64,000 bases of DNA from an uncultured Gammaproteobacteria bacterium (lineage in GTDB: Bacteria > Pseudomonadota > Gammaproteobacteria > GCA-002705445 > GCA-002716945): NCBI GenBank assembly GCA_902559355.1, contig CACEHM010000002.1:171246-235245 (forward strand), written 5' to 3'. The notes beneath the pieces are model-generated. The model saw only the letters and a program-made list of their open reading frames with translations. It made no database searches and had not been told where the DNA came from. Below, piece by piece: positions 23,849 through 29,680 of the stretch. A program made the translations under genes and the position numbers. Every line of letters begins with the position of its first letter. Position 1 is the first letter of the stretch.

Positions 23849-24870
23849 TTATGTTAAATATTCTAGTGTCTGCATTTCATTAAGTCTACTTTTACATCTT
23901 CTCCAAAGTTCTATAAGTTTATCACCTGTATAAATATGATTATATGAGCAGTTATTAAAAAAAAATTTAATCTTTATTTTGTTTCTATAGCAAATATCTA
24001 TAAAGGATATAAACCTTCTGATAAGATCGGCTGAATCATCATTACAAATAATAAAATCATTTATAAAGATCCACTCTATGTTTTCTGACATCTCAATATA
24101 TTCTTTATCTCCTCCAGGCTCTTTGAAGAAGTCTGAAAAAGAAATCCATAAAAAATCACATGATGTTGCTTTACAACTAAAACTTCTAGAATTGATACAG
24201 TACTTTTTATTAAAAGTTAGATTTTCAAAATTATTTTTTAAAAACTTTACAATATCTTTATCATCATAATTTTGATTTACATTATCATTATACATATTAA
24301 CAATATTTCTTGATCTATAATCTACCAAGCCTTCTACTTTATATAGATTAATTGATTCTTGCATAATCTTCATCTCATTAATAAACACTTCTCTCTGTAG
24401 ACCATTTTTATATAATTCTTCTGGATGTGTATTAGAAGTTAAATACAGAGTAACATTTAATTTAATGAGCTGATTTAGTAGGCTTCCGATAATCATCGCG
24501 TCTGATATATCCTCAACTTGAAATTCATCAATAAATATAACTTTACATTTTTTACTTAAAGATCTAGCTACAATATTCAAAGGATTTTTTTTACCTGACA
24601 AGCCAGATAATTCATCATGTACGATCTGCATGAGCTCCATGTAATGGAATGATGCTTTTCTTTCTGTTAGTAAATTAATAAAAGATTTTGTAATTAAAGT
24701 TTTACCTGTTCCAACATCTCCCCATATATAGAAACCTTTCTTGGAATCTTTATTTTCTAATTTATTTGTTAAATCTTTTTCAGGTTGAATAGATTCAATC
24801 ATTTTGTGAATCAAATCTGATTGTGCTGAATCTAATTTAATCCCTCTTTTTTTTAAACTTTTTTCAATAT
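23849..24870 (-). CDS. zapE: AFG1-family ATPase (cell division protein ZapE)
   Basis: Walker A IWGDVGTGKT and Walker B VIFIDEFQVEDI. I chose the ATG at 24870 (MFEYIEKSL...). The ORF is open upstream to 24982, but only by reading through a tRNA fragment. Confidence 0.7.
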
Positions 24871-24888
24871 ACTCAAACATTTTTTTAA

Positions 24889-24940
24889 TACCACTGATCG
24901 GACTCGAACCGATACTTTCTTGCGAAAAAGGGATCTTGAG
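24889..24940 (-). pseudogene. 3' half of a split tRNA-Leu(CAA) gene: anticodon 3' stem, variable arm, T-arm, acceptor 3' strand
   Basis: The minus strand reads CTCAAGA-TCCCT-TTTTCGCAAGAAAGT-ATCGG-TTCGAGT-CCGAT-CAGTGGT-A. This gives a T-arm with a GGTTCGAGTCC loop, a GNRA-capped variable hairpin, and an acceptor 3' strand complementary to GCCACTG at 29674-29680. Confidence 0.7.
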
Positions 24941-24999
24941 TGCATTGTCTGCACCAACCCAACAGTTACAAGATTTTAACACATTTTTTAATATTTTTT

Positions 25000-25028
25000 T
25001 TACATAAGATATTCATAAGTGCTATAAT
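25000..25028 (+). promoter_or_regulatory. sigma70-like promoter (TTACAT-17 nt-TATAAT)
   Basis: -35 TTACAT at 25000-25005, a 17-nt spacer, and a perfect -10 TATAAT at 25023-25028. An AAGGAGA Shine-Dalgarno sits 7 nt before the ATG at 25097. Confidence 0.4.
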
Positions 25029-25096
25029 AGAGTCTGTCTTGATTTAGAAATTACTCTACTTGCTGGGACATTAAACAAACGCTAAAGGAGAATATA

Positions 25097-25279
25097 ATGA
25101 AATTATCTATTCAGACTATCAAAGACTATTTCAAAAGTAAAAAAGATAAAAATAAAGATCTCATCTTTTTTGAAGAAATAGGAAATCAAAAAACTTCTAA
25201 AGATGACATCATGAAAAATTTGGTCAAGATCTTAGAAAAAAAAGGTTTCAAATATATAGATACAAAATATAAAGACTAA
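25097..25279 (+). CDS. small charged hypothetical protein (60 aa), first gene of the insertion
   Basis: Strong SD (AAAGGAGA), a promoter upstream and a terminator 20 nt downstream. I recognise no homolog. Confidence 0.45.
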   Translation: MKLSIQTIKDYFKSKKDKNKDLIFFEEIGNQKTSKDDIMKNLVKILEKKGFKYIDTKYKD

Positions 25280-25300
25280 ACACATATAATTGTGTAATAC

Positions 25301-25343
25301 AAAAAGAGAGTAACGAGTGCATCTCAACTACTCTCTTTTTTTG
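25301..25343. terminator. rho-independent terminator (bidirectional: A-run / hairpin / T-run)
   Basis: AAAAA-AGAGAGTA-(16-nt loop with inner GAG/CTC pairing)-TACTCTCT-TTTTTTT. Confidence 0.5.
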
Positions 25344-25411
25344 TGATAATCCATTCAATCTGATATCTATCCGATCAACAATCCTACTCTATACAGATTG
25401 TAGTAGAAAAT

Positions 25412-25440
25412 TTGACTTACAAATATCAGTAAACATAATA
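25412..25440 (+). promoter_or_regulatory. candidate sigma70 promoter for the five-gene cassette (TTGACT-17 nt-ATAATA)
   Basis: -35 TTGACT at 25412-25417, a 17-nt spacer, and -10 ATAATA at 25435-25440, about 70 nt upstream of the 25511 ATG. Confidence 0.35.
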
Positions 25441-25510
25441 ATTATTTTTCATAATAAAAAAGTATTTTTTTTTACTTGCTTTTATTATTTATCAGAATAA
25501 AGATACTAAT

Positions 25511-26134
25511 ATGGATAAAGAAAAAATTAAAAATAAAATCTTAGATATTGAAACCAAGTATAATTTTACCGAGGGATACAAATTGCTATATTGTCCATGG
25601 TCAACTATTGAACACTCTTCGATTGCGTTTATATCATTAAACCCTGGCAGTAAAATGCCTGATGAGGCAGATATTAGATTGTTATCTGATGAGAGAGGTA
25701 ATTCATATGAAATAGAAATGCATACTACTAAATCTCCTATTACTCATCAATTTTTAGAACTGTGCAAACTTCTCAATAAGAATCCCTCAGATATTCTTAC
25801 TGGCACAATTTGTCCATTTAGAGGTAAATCATGGACATCATTTTCTCGTGATCAGAGAAATGCAGGTCTAATGCTAGGCAAATATTTCTGGCACAAAACT
25901 CTAGATAAGATTAACTTACTCATTTGCGTTGGTAATGATGTTGCAAAAAATATGACTTCTATTTCTGATTTTAAAAAAGAGAAAATTTTTGATTCAGGTT
26001 GGGGTGATATTAAAATAACAAGATATAAAGACAGCACAGGTAAGATACTTATTCATTTACCACACCTCTCTACTTTTAAACTTTTTTCTCGAAAAGAGTG
26101 CTTACTTGTTCTAAAACAAGTTTTTAAGTTATAG
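25511..26134 (+). CDS. hypothetical protein with UDG-superfamily (uracil-DNA glycosylase fold, family 4/SMUG-like) motif pattern
   Basis: IAFISLNPGSKMPDEAD resembles UDG motif 1 (hhhhG-x-[NA]-PG followed by acidic residues). HQFLELCKLL matches the following helix. TICPFRGKSW...LLICVGNDVA resembles the V-x-C-RP..NR...hhV-LG region. The C-terminal HLPHLS resembles UDG motif 2 (HPSPL). This is a recalled pattern match, not a database hit. Confidence 0.45.
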   Translation: MDKEKIKNKILDIETKYNFTEGYKLLYCPWSTIEHSSIAFISLNPGSKMPDEADIRLLSDERGNSYEIEMHTTKSPITHQFLELCKLLNKNPSDILTGTICPFRGKSWTSFSRDQRNAGLMLGKYFWHKTLDKINLLICVGNDVAKNMTSISDFKKEKIFDSGWGDIKITRYKDSTGKILIHLPHLSTFKLFSRKECLLVLKQVFKL

Positions 26135-26149
26135 ACTATAATTTAAATA

Positions 26150-27226
26150 ATGATTGATATACATGATAAACTGCCCTCTGATCTAATTATTGGCAATGAA
26201 TATACTAAACAAGAATTAGATAAGTTGTTTAAGACATCTGAAATTGAAAACATTTATGGGGGTATTGGAAAGATAAATAATCGTTTAATCTTGCTTATCA
26301 CTCTAGACAAAACCTACACCGCAGAACTTCCTAAAAATGAGTCTGAAATGTCAAGAGAAGAGAAGGAAGAGCATAATTATCGTCATCTTGACTATTTTGA
26401 TATGGAGGAAAATATTTTCTGTTGGGATGGACCTACTAATATGAATCTTGAGAGTCCTTTAATAAAAGACTTTACCTCAAAATTATATCAATGCCTGTTG
26501 TTTGTTAGAGAGTATTATCATAAAGATGAATATGAATTTAAGAATAAAATTACTAATGATAAGTATTTTTACTGTGGGAAGATAAGATATCAAAAACATA
26601 TTGATACTAAAATTAAACATTTTATTTCAAGTTTAGAAGATGAACCTAATAAGAAACTTAATCATTTATATAAATTCATACCGACTGAATTAGATGAAAG
26701 AAAGAAAGAATTTAATATCTTAAAAGAAAAAGAGAAAAATGATTTTATTGAGTTAGTGCATCAAGAAGAATCTCGCACTCATGAAAGGAAAAGCACTTTT
26801 TCTGGAAATCCAGGCATTAAAAAAGAGTATATGGTTGAAAGTAACCTCAAAGCAGTATGCGGTTTTCTTAATGAAAGAGGTGGTAACCTTATGATTGGTA
26901 TCGAAGACGATGGGGAGGTTACTGGTATAGAGAAAGATTATAATTATAAAGACAATGATCAATTTGAGAGACATATTCTTTTTCAAATGAGAAAACTAAT
27001 GGATAAATTTGAAGTAATTGAAAAATATATTAAGTTTCAATTTGAATATGCTTCTTTAAGTGATAAAGACTCATCTAGAAAAATAGTATGTAGAATAAAT
27101 TGTAGACCATTACCTGATGATGAAGTTTCTTATGTTAACGGTAAACTTTATTTAAGAGTAGGACCCCAAACTAATGAATTAAGTGTAAAAGAGGCGTTAT
27201 CATGGTTAAAGAGAAGACAAAAGTAA
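26150..27226 (+). CDS. protein with C-terminal AlbA_2 / Schlafen-like (divergent AAA-4) domain
   Basis: EESRTHERKSTF...AVCGFLNERGGNLMIGIEDDGEVTGIEKD matches the AlbA_2 signature (E-S-x-T-x-E-[FY]-K ... A-F-x-N-x-x-GG-x-L-x-IG-V-x-D-D-G-x-V-x-G-I). I recognise no family for the N-terminal ~190 aa. Confidence 0.5.
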   Translation: MIDIHDKLPSDLIIGNEYTKQELDKLFKTSEIENIYGGIGKINNRLILLITLDKTYTAELPKNESEMSREEKEEHNYRHLDYFDMEENIFCWDGPTNMNLESPLIKDFTSKLYQCLLFVREYYHKDEYEFKNKITNDKYFYCGKIRYQKHIDTKIKHFISSLEDEPNKKLNHLYKFIPTELDERKKEFNILKEKEKNDFIELVHQEESRTHERKSTFSGNPGIKKEYMVESNLKAVCGFLNERGGNLMIGIEDDGEVTGIEKDYNYKDNDQFERHILFQMRKLMDKFEVIEKYIKFQFEYASLSDKDSSRKIVCRINCRPLPDDEVSYVNGKLYLRVGPQTNELSVKEALSWLKRRQK

Positions 27227-27636
27227 AGATATACCAAGGTGGTTCAACAGGTTTAGTTCAACAAAATAAACGCATGATTATGAAGTCTTCTCACACCAAA
27301 GGTGATGTAGGGATTCAAAGACAATTAAAAGATATGTTAAAAGCGAAATTTTCTTTTCATATAGTAATTATGCACTTTGGTGATTTTTTCAGGATAATCG
27401 AAGAGGACGCAGAGTTTTTTAATAAAGAATTTAATTTTAAACTTTCACAACCAGGACGATACACTTTCGTTACAACTGCGTTCCCTCTAAATAGTAGGCA
27501 AAAATATATAGATAAACTTACTGATATGGAAAAACAATTTTGTCTTCTAGATCAATATAAAGTTGACGGTACAGAGGAATTTTATAGGAAGGTAAACATA
27601 TCAACAAATAAAGATGCACTAGGGTTCTGGTACTAA
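27202..27636 (+). CDS. stand-alone MutS domain I (mismatch-recognition domain)-like protein
   Basis: [45 protein letters not shown] parallels E. coli MutS [71 protein letters not shown] parallels [28 protein letters not shown]. The GDF-Y-E Glu is Arg here (GDFFR). The gene overlaps the upstream ORF by 25 nt; an alternative start is the Met at 27274. Confidence 0.5.
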   Translation: [144 protein letters not shown]

Positions 27637-27656
27637 ATAAGAGAAGTCTCTAGTTC

Positions 27657-28352
27657 ATGATTGATATAACTTTTGATATGTTCTCGGATACTCCTGAAGG
27701 AAAAGATCCAGATACATGGAGTCCAACGTTAAGAAAGTACCATCAAATTTTATGGAATAAACGATTACCCAATGGAACTATGTTTAGTCTTGATCTTGAG
27801 ACAAGACAGTTATTACATCACAGATCTCAATTAGGAGAATTTTATTTATCAAGTGATTGTATAGGTCATACATACAGTCGTACTAAAAGTATTTCTGATA
27901 TAGTCAATCAGATTCCCTTAAGTGAAATAGATTCGTTTTATAAACTATGTAGCACAATAGGTTCTTATATCATATATCCTTGCAAAAGAATTGATAATAA
28001 GATGACATTTAATGGTGCTCGAGGTACTAATCGCAAGATAAAAGATAGATTCGACCTAACATTAGAATGTATTCGATTGTTTTATCAAAATGAAAAAAGT
28101 CCACTTAGTGAGACTATAGAAAGATATAAATCATATTTTAAACTATTTGATAACTTTCAAGGTTATGTTGATTTCTTTTTACTTCAAGATTTAGTATCAA
28201 GTGATTATTCGTCTATTAAATATCTTATACCTTTTAAAGATTTCGATAGTCCAGCACTACCATGCAACGTAGAAGAATATATTACTTATAAAGATAATAC
28301 GACAAAATTTATTTCACAAAGAAATGAAAGAATATTAAAATCAATACAATGA
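27657..28352 (+). CDS. hypothetical protein (orphan, 231 aa)
   Basis: Tightly linked to its neighbours (ATGA overlap with the next gene). I recognise no motif. Conserved-looking stretch: DPDTWSPTLRKYHQILWNKRLPNG. Confidence 0.5.
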   Translation: MIDITFDMFSDTPEGKDPDTWSPTLRKYHQILWNKRLPNGTMFSLDLETRQLLHHRSQLGEFYLSSDCIGHTYSRTKSISDIVNQIPLSEIDSFYKLCSTIGSYIIYPCKRIDNKMTFNGARGTNRKIKDRFDLTLECIRLFYQNEKSPLSETIERYKSYFKLFDNFQGYVDFFLLQDLVSSDYSSIKYLIPFKDFDSPALPCNVEEYITYKDNTTKFISQRNERILKSIQ

Positions 28353-29419
28353 GTAAATTTAAACCTATCTTATACGACGAACTATTTAAATTAATAACAC
28401 TTGGTGATGATGAAGAATGGGAAAAATTTTCTTCAGAGTACGAACATGTCTTTACACCAGGGTTTTTCTCACAACTTTCTGACACCGAAATTTATGAACT
28501 ATTTAATCATTATCAATTTTTATCCATTGAATATTGGAATATTTATTCTTCTTCATTAATTAACTCAGAGAATAATAAAATTAGATCCAATCAACTTCTA
28601 AAAAAATATCGTGAAATATGGGAAGGAAAAACACATAATAAAAATAGCACAGTCACTCCTGGAATTAACGAAAGAAAAATTAAAGAAATTGATGATTTTG
28701 AATTTGCAATTAATTATCCAGTCGAGGAAATATTAGATCCATCATTAAGCGCCGCAGGACCACATTTCTCAGAGATTGTATTTTGTTCAATACTTTATAG
28801 TTTTTTTGAGGAAATACTAACAACCTTCGTATTTAATGTATCTGGAAGTAAGTGTTTTTTTAATAATATAAAATATAAAGATCATTACTTCTATAAAACA
28901 AATAGATATACAGACTTGTATAAAGATTATATGAAACATTCAATCAAAGAACCAAAGAGAAAAGACTATAAGAATTTAGATGATTTTTATTCGGAAAGAT
29001 TAAGATATAGAAACATTACTAAAAAAAGTCTTCCTGAAATTAAAAACAATGAATGGTTAGAGTTTTATAGAAATAATAAGGGTATTGATGGTCGAGAAGT
29101 CCCTGATTACATTATTAAAGCAAAATATATAGATCAAAGATGTGACAGTACATTATATTCTGACTTAATATCACAGAGTAGATTTAAAGAATTCAAAATT
29201 AAAAGGAACAATGTGATGCATGCAAAATCAAATGAATCTAATATATCAACTCTTGCATGTTTTGATATTATAACTGATTTGCTTAACTTCTTAATTAATG
29301 ATAAGAATATTATCAATCAATATTCTAGTTGTATAAGTCAAAACAGTCTAAGATTTGATATTGATAAATTAGATGACGATGATGCTATTTGGGTATTTCA
29401 ATCTGAGATGACTTATTAA
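28349..29419 (+). CDS. hypothetical protein with C-terminal HEPN/Abi_2-like R-x4-H motif (candidate RNase effector)
   Basis: The C-terminal FKIKRNNVMHAKSNESNISTLACFDII contains an R-N-x-x-x-H motif typical of HEPN abortive-infection proteins. Size and composition are compatible with AbiD/AbiF-like proteins. Weak. Confidence 0.35.
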   Translation: MSKFKPILYDELFKLITLGDDEEWEKFSSEYEHVFTPGFFSQLSDTEIYELFNHYQFLSIEYWNIYSSSLINSENNKIRSNQLLKKYREIWEGKTHNKNSTVTPGINERKIKEIDDFEFAINYPVEEILDPSLSAAGPHFSEIVFCSILYSFFEEILTTFVFNVSGSKCFFNNIKYKDHYFYKTNRYTDLYKDYMKHSIKEPKRKDYKNLDDFYSERLRYRNITKKSLPEIKNNEWLEFYRNNKGIDGREVPDYIIKAKYIDQRCDSTLYSDLISQSRFKEFKIKRNNVMHAKSNESNISTLACFDIITDLLNFLINDKNIINQYSSCISQNSLRFDIDKLDDDDAIWVFQSEMTY

Positions 29420-29425
29420 TATTTA

Positions 29426-29509
29426 TAGCGATAGACAGACTCGAACTGTCACTCTGTTGCCAGAATCGGATTTTGAGTCCGACGCGTCTACCAATTCCGC
29501 CATATCGCC
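29426..29509 (-). tRNA. tRNA-Leu (anticodon CAA), class II with long variable arm
   Basis: Cloverleaf read manually on the minus strand: acceptor GGCGATA/TATCGCT (G1-U72), D-arm GCG-GAATTGGTAGA-CGC, anticodon arm TCGGA-CTCAAAA-TCCGA, variable hairpin TCTG-GCAA-CAGA, T-arm GACAG-TTCGAGT-CTGTC, discriminator A, and no encoded CCA. Confidence 0.85.
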
Positions 29510-29640
29510 ATGAGTAATTTATTCTATCAAAAACACAAACACTTTGGAAAGGTGTATGTACGGATAAATGTTTGTGCAATGTTTGTGACTAAAATTTACA
29601 AATTATAAGCATTACCAAGGCATCTGATGCATCCGTCTTC

Positions 29641-29680
29641 GTTTTGAGTCCCTCGTGTCTACCAATTCCACCACAGTGGC
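29641..29680 (-). pseudogene. 5' half of the split tRNA-Leu(CAA): acceptor 5' strand, D-arm, anticodon 5' stem and loop
   Basis: The minus strand reads GCCACTG-TG-GTG-GAATTGGTAGA-CAC-G-AGGGA-CTCAAAA, then diverges into GAAGACGG... with no anticodon 3' stem or T-arm. AGGGA pairs with TCCCT in the fragment at 24929-24933. Confidence 0.65.

What the first reader, a model, noticed from the sequence alone, without database searches (positions are those of the whole stretch)
28349..29419. Last cassette gene carries a HEPN/Abi-type R-x4-H motif: candidate toxic RNase effector
The C-terminal KIKRNNVMHAKSNES contains the R-N-x-x-x-H arrangement diagnostic of HEPN nucleases (the Abi_2/AbiD/AbiF, RnlA and LsoA classes). 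The rest is K/N/Y-rich and predicted helical. The gene is translationally coupled (ATGA) to the preceding orphan ORF, as expected for an effector kept under partner control. The similarity is weak and motif-level only.
Basis: inference. Interest (0 to 1): 0.55.

Follow-up and report, generated by a model that had tools for sequence, protein, structure and literature searches.

The report
Rare HEPN-like defence-island gene
The last gene of a small island inserted into a tRNA-Leu gene of an AT-rich marine bacterium most likely encodes a new, very rare family of HEPN-type RNA-cutting defence proteins, but it is probably not held in check by the gene in front of it as first proposed.

Summary
The ORF (28349-29419, 356 aa), the KRNNVMH motif and the ATGA overlap with the upstream gene are all real. 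The gene is under purifying selection (dN/dS 0.10-0.19). The family is tiny: 10 proteins among 1.84 billion representatives, all from marine metagenomes. R286, N287 and H291 are invariant in all nine full-length members, down to 22% identity. They are three of only five invariant polar residues.

The "orphan" upstream ORF is DUF6994, an abundant HNH-like family (at least 4936 proteins). It occurs without this gene, and this gene occurs without it, so partner control is not supported.

Verdict: probable new HEPN family, of Abi2/RiboL-PSP type, acting as an RNase defence effector. RNase activity is untested.

Context: the gene lies in a 4.7-kb island that splits a resident tRNA-Leu(CAA) gene and carries its own copy.

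The parts
28349..29419 (+). Target gene, 356 aa. All-helical protein of a rare marine family, probably with a HEPN-type core: helix about 137-164, a variable insert, helix 277-291 carrying RNxxxH, and helices 301-332. It also has a family-specific N-terminal region (YPHxFxPG, EYWNIY).
29204..29221 (+). Codons for R286-N-N-V-M-H291, the invariant R-N-x3-H motif and proposed RNase active site.
27657..28352 (+). Upstream gene, 231 aa, Pfam DUF6994. The Pfam authors predict an HNH-like (beta-beta-alpha), type-IV-restriction-endonuclease-like fold. Its stop overlaps the target's start (ATGA).
28349..28352 (+). ATGA start/stop overlap between DUF6994 and the target. It suggests co-transcription and possible translational coupling in this instance.
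   Evidence: the same arrangement occurs in L002
24941..29641 (.). 4.7-kb island lying between the two halves of a resident tRNA-Leu(CAA) gene. It is absent from dozens of related contigs, which have an intact tRNA there. No integrase was found.
29425..29510 (-). Intact tRNA-Leu(CAA) carried by the island. It is about 80% identical to the resident type and lies 6 nt downstream of the target's stop, convergent with it.
29642..29680 (-). Orphaned 5' half of the resident tRNA-Leu(CAA), running from the acceptor stem through the anticodon loop.
24889..24940 (-). 3' half of the resident tRNA-Leu(CAA), from the anticodon loop to the 3' end. It is preceded (24941-24983) by a degenerate 5'-half-like stretch.
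25511..27636 (+). Other island genes on the same strand, closely spaced. They are a 207-aa protein of unknown family (25511-26134), a 358-aa protein with a C-terminal Schlafen AlbA_2 domain (26150-27226) and a 144-aa MutS-domain-I-only protein (27202-27636). In related contigs the 207-aa and MutS_I-like genes recur next to DUF6994.

Best explanation
The gene encodes a member of a previously unclassified, very rare family of HEPN-superfamily proteins, closest to the Abi2/AbiD/AbiF and RiboL-PSP-HEPN assemblage.

Inferred mechanism, by analogy with characterised HEPN enzymes: R286, N287 and H291 lie at the end of one core helix and form a metal-independent endoribonuclease site, possibly assisted by D262 or the acidic residue at 154/155. 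The enzyme would cut RNA, leaving 2',3'-cyclic phosphate ends. Its role would be that of an abortive-infection-type or second-line defence effector encoded in defence islands.

Most family members stand alone. Activity is therefore more likely restrained within the protein itself, by the family-specific N-terminal region and the insert between core helices, than by a dedicated antitoxin.

In this genome the gene is the terminal cargo of a tRNA-Leu-associated island and is probably co-transcribed with DUF6994.

Shown here: gene reality, motif invariance, helical architecture and motif position, enrichment of HEPN structures among fold matches, sub-threshold HEPN profile hits, and defence-island neighbourhoods. 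Inferred: RNase activity, toxicity, defence role and self-regulation.
For: Conservation and motif:
- RNxxxH is invariant in nine full-length members at 22-96% identity, and the only other invariant polar residues are D262 and C265.
- The residue after R is N, as is typical of HEPN.

Structure:
- In the AlphaFold2 model built on 12 sequences (mean pLDDT 69.6, pTM 0.65; blocks around residues 250-330 mostly score 74-94), helix 277-291 ends with the motif, followed by loop 292-300 and helix 301-317.

Sequence profiles:
- Pfam scans of C-terminal fragments hit HEPN_RiboL-PSP below threshold. P0002 gives E 0.0025 over profile positions 35-190 of 191, P0011 gives E 0.0029 over 86-186, and P0003 gives E 0.25.
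- Both better hits place the motif R at profile position about 153-155.

Context:
- Neighbours of homologues are an HKD+Snf2 helicase and a type IIG R-M enzyme (1e-215) in L002.
- In L001 they are PbeA, PbeC, DndD and DndC (down to 3e-178).
- In L005 they are a type II restriction enzyme and methyltransferase.
- HEPN genes are known to cluster with R-M systems, and Abi2/AbiF/AbiD also with ParB-HNH DNases (PMC3710099).

Selection: dN/dS is 0.10-0.19.
Against: - No curated profile reaches threshold. Pfam, NCBIfam, PADLOC and PHROGs give nothing for the full-length proteins, and the best HEPN hit is 18.2 bits against a gathering score of 28.4.
- PDB sequence and profile searches find no HEPN chain.
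- Foldseek against PDB and BFVD gives nothing significant.
- The model rests on 12 sequences, and 89 residues have pLDDT below 50.
- I could not see residue-level superpositions. It is therefore not shown that R286 and H291 overlay catalytic residues.
- No experiment bears on RNase activity, toxicity or phage defence.
Confidence: 0.55

Rival explanations
1. The protein is a HEPN toxin held in check by the translationally coupled upstream protein (DUF6994), which acts as antitoxin or controlling partner, as in a type II toxin-antitoxin or effector-immunity pair.
For: - The ATGA overlap is present in the window, and the same overlapping pair occurs in L002.
- The pair lies directly next to the island's tRNA-Leu in both contigs.
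- HEPN toxins generally need a restraint, according to general knowledge of HepT-MntA and RnlA-RnlB.
Against: - DUF6994 has at least 4936 relatives at 60-90% identity, whereas the target family has about 10 representatives.
- In L010, a contig syntenic with the window, DUF6994 is followed by unrelated 223-aa and 159-aa genes. In L011 it is followed by a MutS_I-like gene, and in L012/L013 by an LpqE-like gene.
- Target homologues in L001, L003 and L005 have no DUF6994 nearby.
- Elsewhere DUF6994 overlaps a gene upstream of it (207 aa in L010, 283 aa in L012/L013), which suggests its regular partner lies on its other side.
- Between the window and L002, the target is 96.8% identical in DNA but DUF6994 only 86% (dS 0.098 against 0.568), with mosaic identity. 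The two genes have therefore not travelled as one unit.
- The window and L002 pairs are close relatives and effectively count as one observation.
Confidence: 0.1
2. DUF6994 (HNH-like, type-IV-restriction-like) and the HEPN-like protein act together as a two-nuclease defence module. One protein targets DNA and the other RNA, with neither acting as an antitoxin.
For: - The overlapping genes occur in two contigs.
- The Pfam authors predict an HNH/type-IV-REase-like fold for DUF6994 (PMC11701544).
- Anantharaman et al. list Abi2/AbiF/AbiD HEPN genes in neighbourhoods with a ParB+HNH DNase protein, and RiboL-PSP-HEPN in operons with ParB.
Against: - The same non-co-occurrence data apply as for the toxin-antitoxin model.
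- PADLOC recognises neither protein.
- The Pfam authors note that the catalytic His of the HNH motif is replaced in DUF6994.
Confidence: 0.13
3. The protein has a HEPN-like helical bundle but is not a nuclease. It would bind a nucleotide, nucleic acid or protein partner, as non-catalytic HEPN domains do (for example the substrate-binding domains of nucleotidyltransferases, or MtlR).
For: - Non-catalytic HEPN domains are well known (PMC3710099).
Against: According to the same paper, the non-catalytic families are the ones that have lost Rx4-6H. In this family R, the following N and H are all invariant.
Confidence: 0.08
4. The protein is not a HEPN domain at all. It is an unrelated helical protein whose conserved R-N-x3-H serves another purpose, and the fold and profile similarities are generic helical-bundle noise.
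For: - All sequence-profile matches are below curated thresholds.
- Foldseek finds nothing significant.
- The alignment behind the model is shallow.
Against: - HEPN proteins are a tiny fraction of the 48,164 chains searched, yet they supply about 15 of the 38 best hits, and they cover 90% of small HEPN proteins.
- Two members only 20-30% identical to each other hit the same HEPN Pfam model in the same register.
- The motif type, its position relative to the helices and the defence-island context all agree.
Confidence: 0.14

Closest known systems
Abi2/AbiD/AbiF HEPN abortive-infection proteins (Pfam Abi_2, PF07751)
   Same: Both are single proteins of roughly 300-350 aa with a family-specific N-terminal part and a HEPN core carrying R-N-x3-H. 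Both are encoded in or beside R-M and other defence loci, and some Abi2 genes lie near an HNH-type DNase (PMC3710099). Both are presumed to be self-restrained RNases.
   Different: No Abi_2 profile match appears even at E up to 10. The N-terminal region (YPHxFxPG, EYWNIY) and the KYIDxxC helix are unique to this family. The family is known only from marine metagenomes.
RiboL-PSP-HEPN (Pfam PF18735)
   Same: This is the only curated family that any member touches. Three members give colinear sub-threshold hits over most of the 191-position profile, with the motif R in the same register. The family conserves Rx4-6H and is described as distantly related to AbiF and AbiD.
   Different: Scores of 11.7-18.2 bits fall below the 28.4-bit gathering score. 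The window protein itself gives no hit. There is no fusion to an L-PSP endoribonuclease domain and no ParB gene nearby.
HepT (DUF86) toxins of HEPN-MNT toxin-antitoxin systems, for example SO_3166 and PDB 5yep, 7ae2, 8xdj
   Different: HepT proteins are about 130-aa single domains paired with an MNT nucleotidyltransferase antitoxin. The target is 356 aa, has extra regions, and has no MNT gene beside it in any context.
RnlA/LsoA HEPN toxins with RnlB/LsoB antitoxins
   Same: They are HEPN RNases of similar overall size that act in anti-phage defence.
   Different: No sequence or structural match to RnlA or LsoA appeared in any search. The target has no small downstream antitoxin gene; a convergent tRNA follows it.

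Membership tests
HEPN superfamily | Conserved Rx4-6H motif | tested here: met
   R286-x4-H291 is invariant in nine full-length members at 22-96% identity. The definition comes from PMC3710099.
HEPN superfamily | Polar residue (N, D or H) immediately after the motif R | tested here: met
   N287 is invariant.
HEPN superfamily | Motif at the end of core helix 3 and the start of the loop to helix 4 | tested here: met
   In the AlphaFold2 model, helix 277-291, loop 292-300 and helix 301-317 give this arrangement, with block pLDDT of 74-94. This is a prediction, not a solved structure.
HEPN superfamily | Four-helix up-down bundle of two alpha-hairpins, often with an insert between helices 2 and 3 | tested here: inconclusive
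HEPN superfamily | Second conserved acidic residue near the active site (often Ex3[KR] in helix 2) | tested here: inconclusive
   An acidic residue is present at position 154 or 155 in all nine members (FFE[ED]IL), with K or R four residues later in some members only. D262 is invariant. Spatial proximity to the motif could not be checked.
HEPN superfamily | Significant profile match to a curated HEPN family | tested here: not met
   The best match is HEPN_RiboL-PSP at 18.2 bits (E 0.0025) against a gathering score of 28.4. Full-length proteins give no hit. HHpred-type profile-profile comparison could not be run.
HEPN superfamily | Metal-independent RNase activity that depends on R and H | not testable with these tools
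   This needs biochemistry.
Abi_2 (AbiD/AbiF) family | Match to the Pfam Abi_2 profile | tested here: not met
   No hit appears at E up to 10 for any of the family members or their C-terminal fragments.
RiboL-PSP-HEPN (PF18735) | Profile match at the gathering score; L-PSP fusion or ParB operon | tested here: not met
   The hits are sub-threshold only. No L-PSP domain or ParB neighbour was found.
HEPN-MNT (HepT-MntA) toxin-antitoxin | Adjacent minimal nucleotidyltransferase antitoxin gene | tested here: not met
   The neighbours are DUF6994, a tRNA, R-M and Dnd/Pbe genes, and small unknown ORFs. No nucleotidyltransferase is among them.
Two-gene toxin-partner module with DUF6994 | Conserved co-occurrence of the two families | tested here: not met
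   They are paired only in the window and its 96% relative L002. The target occurs without DUF6994 in L001, L003 and L005. DUF6994 occurs without the target in L010-L013 and is about 500 times more numerous.

The most novel reading that the evidence does not exclude
The HEPN-like protein could be an anticodon-type nuclease functionally tied to the island's own tRNA-Leu(CAA). The island breaks the resident tRNA-Leu(CAA) in its anticodon loop, supplies a sequence-variant replacement 6 nt downstream of the nuclease gene, and the nuclease would discriminate between resident-type and island-type tRNA. That would make the cell dependent on the island, a form of tRNA addiction.

A more modest alternative is that DUF6994 plus this protein form a new two-nuclease defence system (probability about 0.13).
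Probability: 0.03. Interest if true: 0.85.

Novelty: new variant of a known kind. Interest (0 to 1): 0.4.

Why it matters
If confirmed, this adds an unclassified family to the HEPN RNase superfamily. It would also add a candidate single-gene defence or abortive-infection effector from an AT-rich marine gammaproteobacterial lineage (it may have a streamlined genome; this was not tested). Current defence catalogues (PADLOC, Pfam, NCBIfam) do not recognise the family. It shows that motif invariance plus fold prediction can recover such families when profile searches fail. The surrounding locus also documents a tRNA-Leu integration hot spot where single-gene cassettes, several of them nuclease-like, accumulate. 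That hot spot is a practical place to look for further unknown defence genes in uncultured marine bacteria. The finding itself is not surprising to a specialist, because HEPN domains are already known to be widespread in defence islands.

Tried and rejected
Structure and fold searches:
- The first AlphaFold run, on 4 sequences, was too poor to use (pLDDT 48.6). It was repeated with 12 sequences.
- Foldseek against PDB and against BFVD viral structures gave no significant match.
- The afdb50 library was not available.

Sequence searches that found nothing useful:
- PDB sequence and profile searches with A1, A2 and A3 gave no HEPN chain, only chance hits (MsrB, OspE).
- tblastn against phage and plasmid records gave nothing meaningful.
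- A second database search with the 12-sequence profile added no new members.

Ideas considered and dropped:
- A conserved small partner. A 78-82-aa ORF lies next to the homologues in L001 and L003 (72% identical to each other). However, it sits in opposite relative orientations, is absent from the window, and carries the same leader as other small cassette genes. I treat it as a co-resident cassette, not a partner.
- P0008, a UmuC N-terminus joined to the C-terminal half of a family member, is regarded as a chimera or gene disruption, not a domain architecture.
- My guess that the 207-aa island protein is UDG-like has no support.
- My provisional assignment of the window to SAR11, based, was withdrawn. 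The aroA-cmk-rpsA-ihfB-lapA-lapB-pyrF gene order points to Gammaproteobacteria. That reading of the gene order rests on my own knowledge.
- Rfam gives no family at threshold for the leader RNA.
- The promoter and terminator scan was no better than shuffled sequence.

Full report
**Observation.** The ORF at 28349-29419 (+) exists and encodes 356 aa. Residues 283-297 are KIKRNNVMHAKSNES, so R286-N-N-V-M-H291 is an R-x4-H motif with N after the R. The start codon overlaps the stop of the preceding ORF (27657-28352) as ATGA. The protein is K/N/Y-rich and is predicted to be almost entirely helical. In shuffles of this sequence, R-x4-H arises with P = 0.25 and R-N-x3-H with P = 0.024. The motif in a single sequence therefore proves little.

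**The family.** A word-indexed search of 5.8 billion proteins found three relatives, at 96, 67 and 49% identity. An exhaustive HMMER profile search of 1.84 billion representatives found ten proteins in all. Those whose contigs I retrieved all came from marine metagenomes, including Tara samples. A second profile search added nothing. In the nine full-length members, at 22-96% identity, only eleven columns are invariant. The polar ones are D262, C265, R286, N287 and H291. The motif reads KRNNVMH, MRNSIMH, LRNKVVH, ARNTSMH, MRNAIVH and QRNSIVH in different members. The gene is under purifying selection, with dN/dS of 0.19 and 0.10.

**Is it HEPN?**
- Full-length proteins match nothing in Pfam, NCBIfam, PADLOC or PHROGs, nor any PDB sequence.
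- I then scanned only the region from the first conserved core helix to the end (alignment A3). Three of eight members hit Pfam HEPN_RiboL-PSP (PF18735). P0002 gave E 0.0025 over profile positions 35-190 of 191, P0011 gave E 0.0029 over 86-186, and P0003 gave E 0.25. The gathering score is 28.4 bits and the best hit is 18.2.
- The two better hits come from proteins only distantly related to each other, and both place the motif R at profile position about 153-155.
- An AlphaFold2 model from four sequences was poor (pLDDT 48.6). With twelve sequences it reached mean pLDDT 69.6 and pTM 0.65, with the conserved helices mostly at 74-94.
- In that model, helix 277-291 ends with the motif, a loop follows, and then come helices 301-317 and 319-332.
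- Anantharaman et al. 2013 define the HEPN domain as a four-helix up-down bundle. It often has an insert between helices 2 and 3. [quoted passage not shown] The model and the alignment fit this description. The candidate acidic residues are 154/155 and D262, and a poorly conserved insert spans about 165-245.
- Foldseek against PDB and against viral models was not significant.

I conclude that HEPN homology is probable but not proven. A profile-profile (HHpred) test could not be run.

**Genomic context of homologues.**
- L002 (96% homologue): the same DUF6994-target pair follows an HKD+Snf2 helicase and a type IIG restriction-methyltransferase.
- L001 (67% homologue): the gene abuts a Dnd/Pbe phosphorothioate system, with PbeA, PbeC, DndD and DndC.
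- L005 (P0012): the gene lies beside an Mrr-like gene, near a type II restriction enzyme and methyltransferase, an AAA_13 fragment and a transposase, next to glmS.

This agrees with the documented tendency of HEPN genes to sit in or beside R-M loci. Abi2/AbiF/AbiD genes also neighbour a ParB+HNH DNase.

**The upstream "orphan".** It is a full-length DUF6994 protein (E 3e-90). The Pfam authors predict that this family resembles type IV restriction endonucleases and HNH nucleases, with an altered active site (PMC11701544). The family is abundant: at least 4936 proteins at E below 1e-5, many at 60-90% identity.
- In L010, which is syntenic with the window, DUF6994 overlaps an upstream 207-aa gene. 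That gene is 84% identical to window 25511-26134. DUF6994 is followed there by unrelated genes.
- In L012/L013 DUF6994 overlaps an upstream 283-aa gene.
- In L011 it is followed by a homologue of the window's MutS_I-only gene.
- Between the window and L002, the target is 96.8% identical in DNA but DUF6994 only 86%, with mosaic identity.

The pairing is therefore local and recent, and the antitoxin or partner-control reading is not supported. A looser cooperation between two nucleases remains possible.

**The island.** The gene is the last one before a convergent tRNA-Leu(CAA) at 29425-29510.
- A second tRNA-Leu(CAA) is split. Its 5' half, through the anticodon loop, lies at 29642-29680. Its 3' half, from the anticodon loop on, lies at 24889-24940. 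The acceptor and anticodon stems pair across the two halves.
- A pattern spanning the rejoined anticodon stem-loop occurs in at least 50 marine metagenome contigs.
- In many of these contigs the window's left flank (pfkB, with or without the AFG1 ATPase gene) and right flank (72-aa and 147-aa genes, queA, tgt) are contiguous around an intact tRNA-Leu(CAA).
- Window 24941-29641 is therefore an insertion that carries its own tRNA-Leu. No integrase is present.
- Other contigs show arrays of single-gene cassettes separated by copies of the tRNA 3' half (L052, L083).
- In L002 the island holds only DUF6994 and the target.

**Host.** The gene order aroA-cmk-rpsA-ihfB-lapA-lapB-pyrF (syntenic with the window) suggests a gammaproteobacterium; that inference rests on my own knowledge of the gene order. 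GC content is about 30%. The organism is not otherwise identified.

**Mechanism and verdict.** The most likely reading (0.55) is a new HEPN family of Abi2/RiboL-PSP type that acts as an RNase defence effector. It would be self-restrained rather than antitoxin-controlled. Enzymatic activity, toxicity and defence are inferred, not shown. The rivals, with evidence and refuting tests in their own sections, are:
- a DUF6994 antitoxin model (0.10)
- a two-nuclease module (0.13)
- a non-catalytic HEPN-like protein (0.08)
- a non-HEPN helical protein (0.14)

Novelty: a new variant, meaning a new family, of a known kind. Interest: 0.4.

Noticed in passing
window 24889-24940 (-), 29642-29680 (-), 29425-29510 (-); island 24941-29641: A resident tRNA-Leu(CAA) gene is split at its anticodon loop by a 4.7-kb island that carries its own intact tRNA-Leu(CAA), about 80% identical to the resident type, and no integrase. 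At least 50 related metagenome contigs have the unsplit tRNA, and in many of them the two flanks are contiguous. Unlike ordinary tRNA-site integration, the resident 5' half is not rejoined to a 3' half.
   Followed up: yes
L052 2522-7746; L083 1787-2581: The same tRNA-Leu site in related contigs holds arrays of single-gene cassettes separated by copies of the tRNA 3' half. L052 has four copies, with genes of 460, 469, 282 and 328 aa. By eye, two of these look nuclease-like at the C-terminus and two contain MORN-like repeats; neither was searched. L083 has one 142-aa gene that looks glyoxalase-like by eye. The site is an integration hot spot.
   Followed up: partly
window 25034-25096 (+), upstream of the 60-aa ORF 25097-25279: A leader of about 57 nt (GTCYTGATTTAGAAATTACTCTACTTGCTGGGACATTAAACAAACGCTAAAGGAG) is 100% identical to two copies in L001 and near-identical to copies in L003, although the neighbouring genes have diverged. 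It follows a TGnTATAAT -10 box and ends in the ribosome-binding site. A short stem (GUCYU/NGGAC) and a possible pseudoknot (UUUAG with CUAAA next to the SD) resemble SAM-II/SAM-V riboswitches. Rfam gives only a sub-threshold SAM_alpha hit (19.6 bits against a gathering score of 36). My search pattern was nearly exact, so covariation could not be assessed.
   Followed up: partly
L014-L037 (genome contigs); window 25097-25279: The same leader occurs in 24 species-representative genomes. Twenty-three are Pelagibacteraceae (SAR11) and one is a Gammaproteobacteria MAG. It is usually followed 24-27 nt later by a conserved basic protein of 55-60 aa (MKLKIQSIKDYFKSKKDRGL...), homologous to the window's 60-aa ORF. 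Less often it precedes other small ORFs, such as a 78-83-aa family and a 46-51-aa family. These loci share nothing else with the window, which suggests that a leader-plus-small-gene cassette is shared between SAR11 and this gammaproteobacterial lineage.
   Followed up: partly
window 25511-27636; L010 6381-7693; L011 7001-8013; L012 6153-7693: DUF6994 recurs with a 207-aa protein of unknown family (84% identical between the window and L010, overlapping DUF6994 in L010) and with a MutS-domain-I-only small protein (downstream of DUF6994 in L011, upstream in the window). In the window, a 358-aa Schlafen AlbA_2-domain protein is also inserted. This may be an uncharacterised DNA-directed system. PADLOC recognises none of these proteins.
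   Followed up: partly
window 23849-24982 (-): The long GTG-start reading of the AFG1/ZapE-like ATPase ORF runs across the tRNA 3'-half fragment. The real start is probably the ATG near 24880 (MFEYIEK...). The homologue in L083 starts at the equivalent MFDYIEE.
   Followed up: partly
P0008 (399 aa, metagenome protein): A UmuC/IMS N-terminal domain (residues 14-158) is joined in frame to the C-terminal half of a target-family member, including the RNKVVH motif. It is probably an assembly chimera or a gene disrupted by insertion.
   Followed up: no
L001 9680-9916; L003 1674-1922; L023 about 1657-1910: A small protein family of 78-83 aa (MTTNYKK...GGNPTxFGGAMYK...) carrying the same leader lies directly beside target-family genes in two contigs. 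It is upstream on the same strand in L001 and downstream and convergent in L003. It has no Pfam match.
   Followed up: partly
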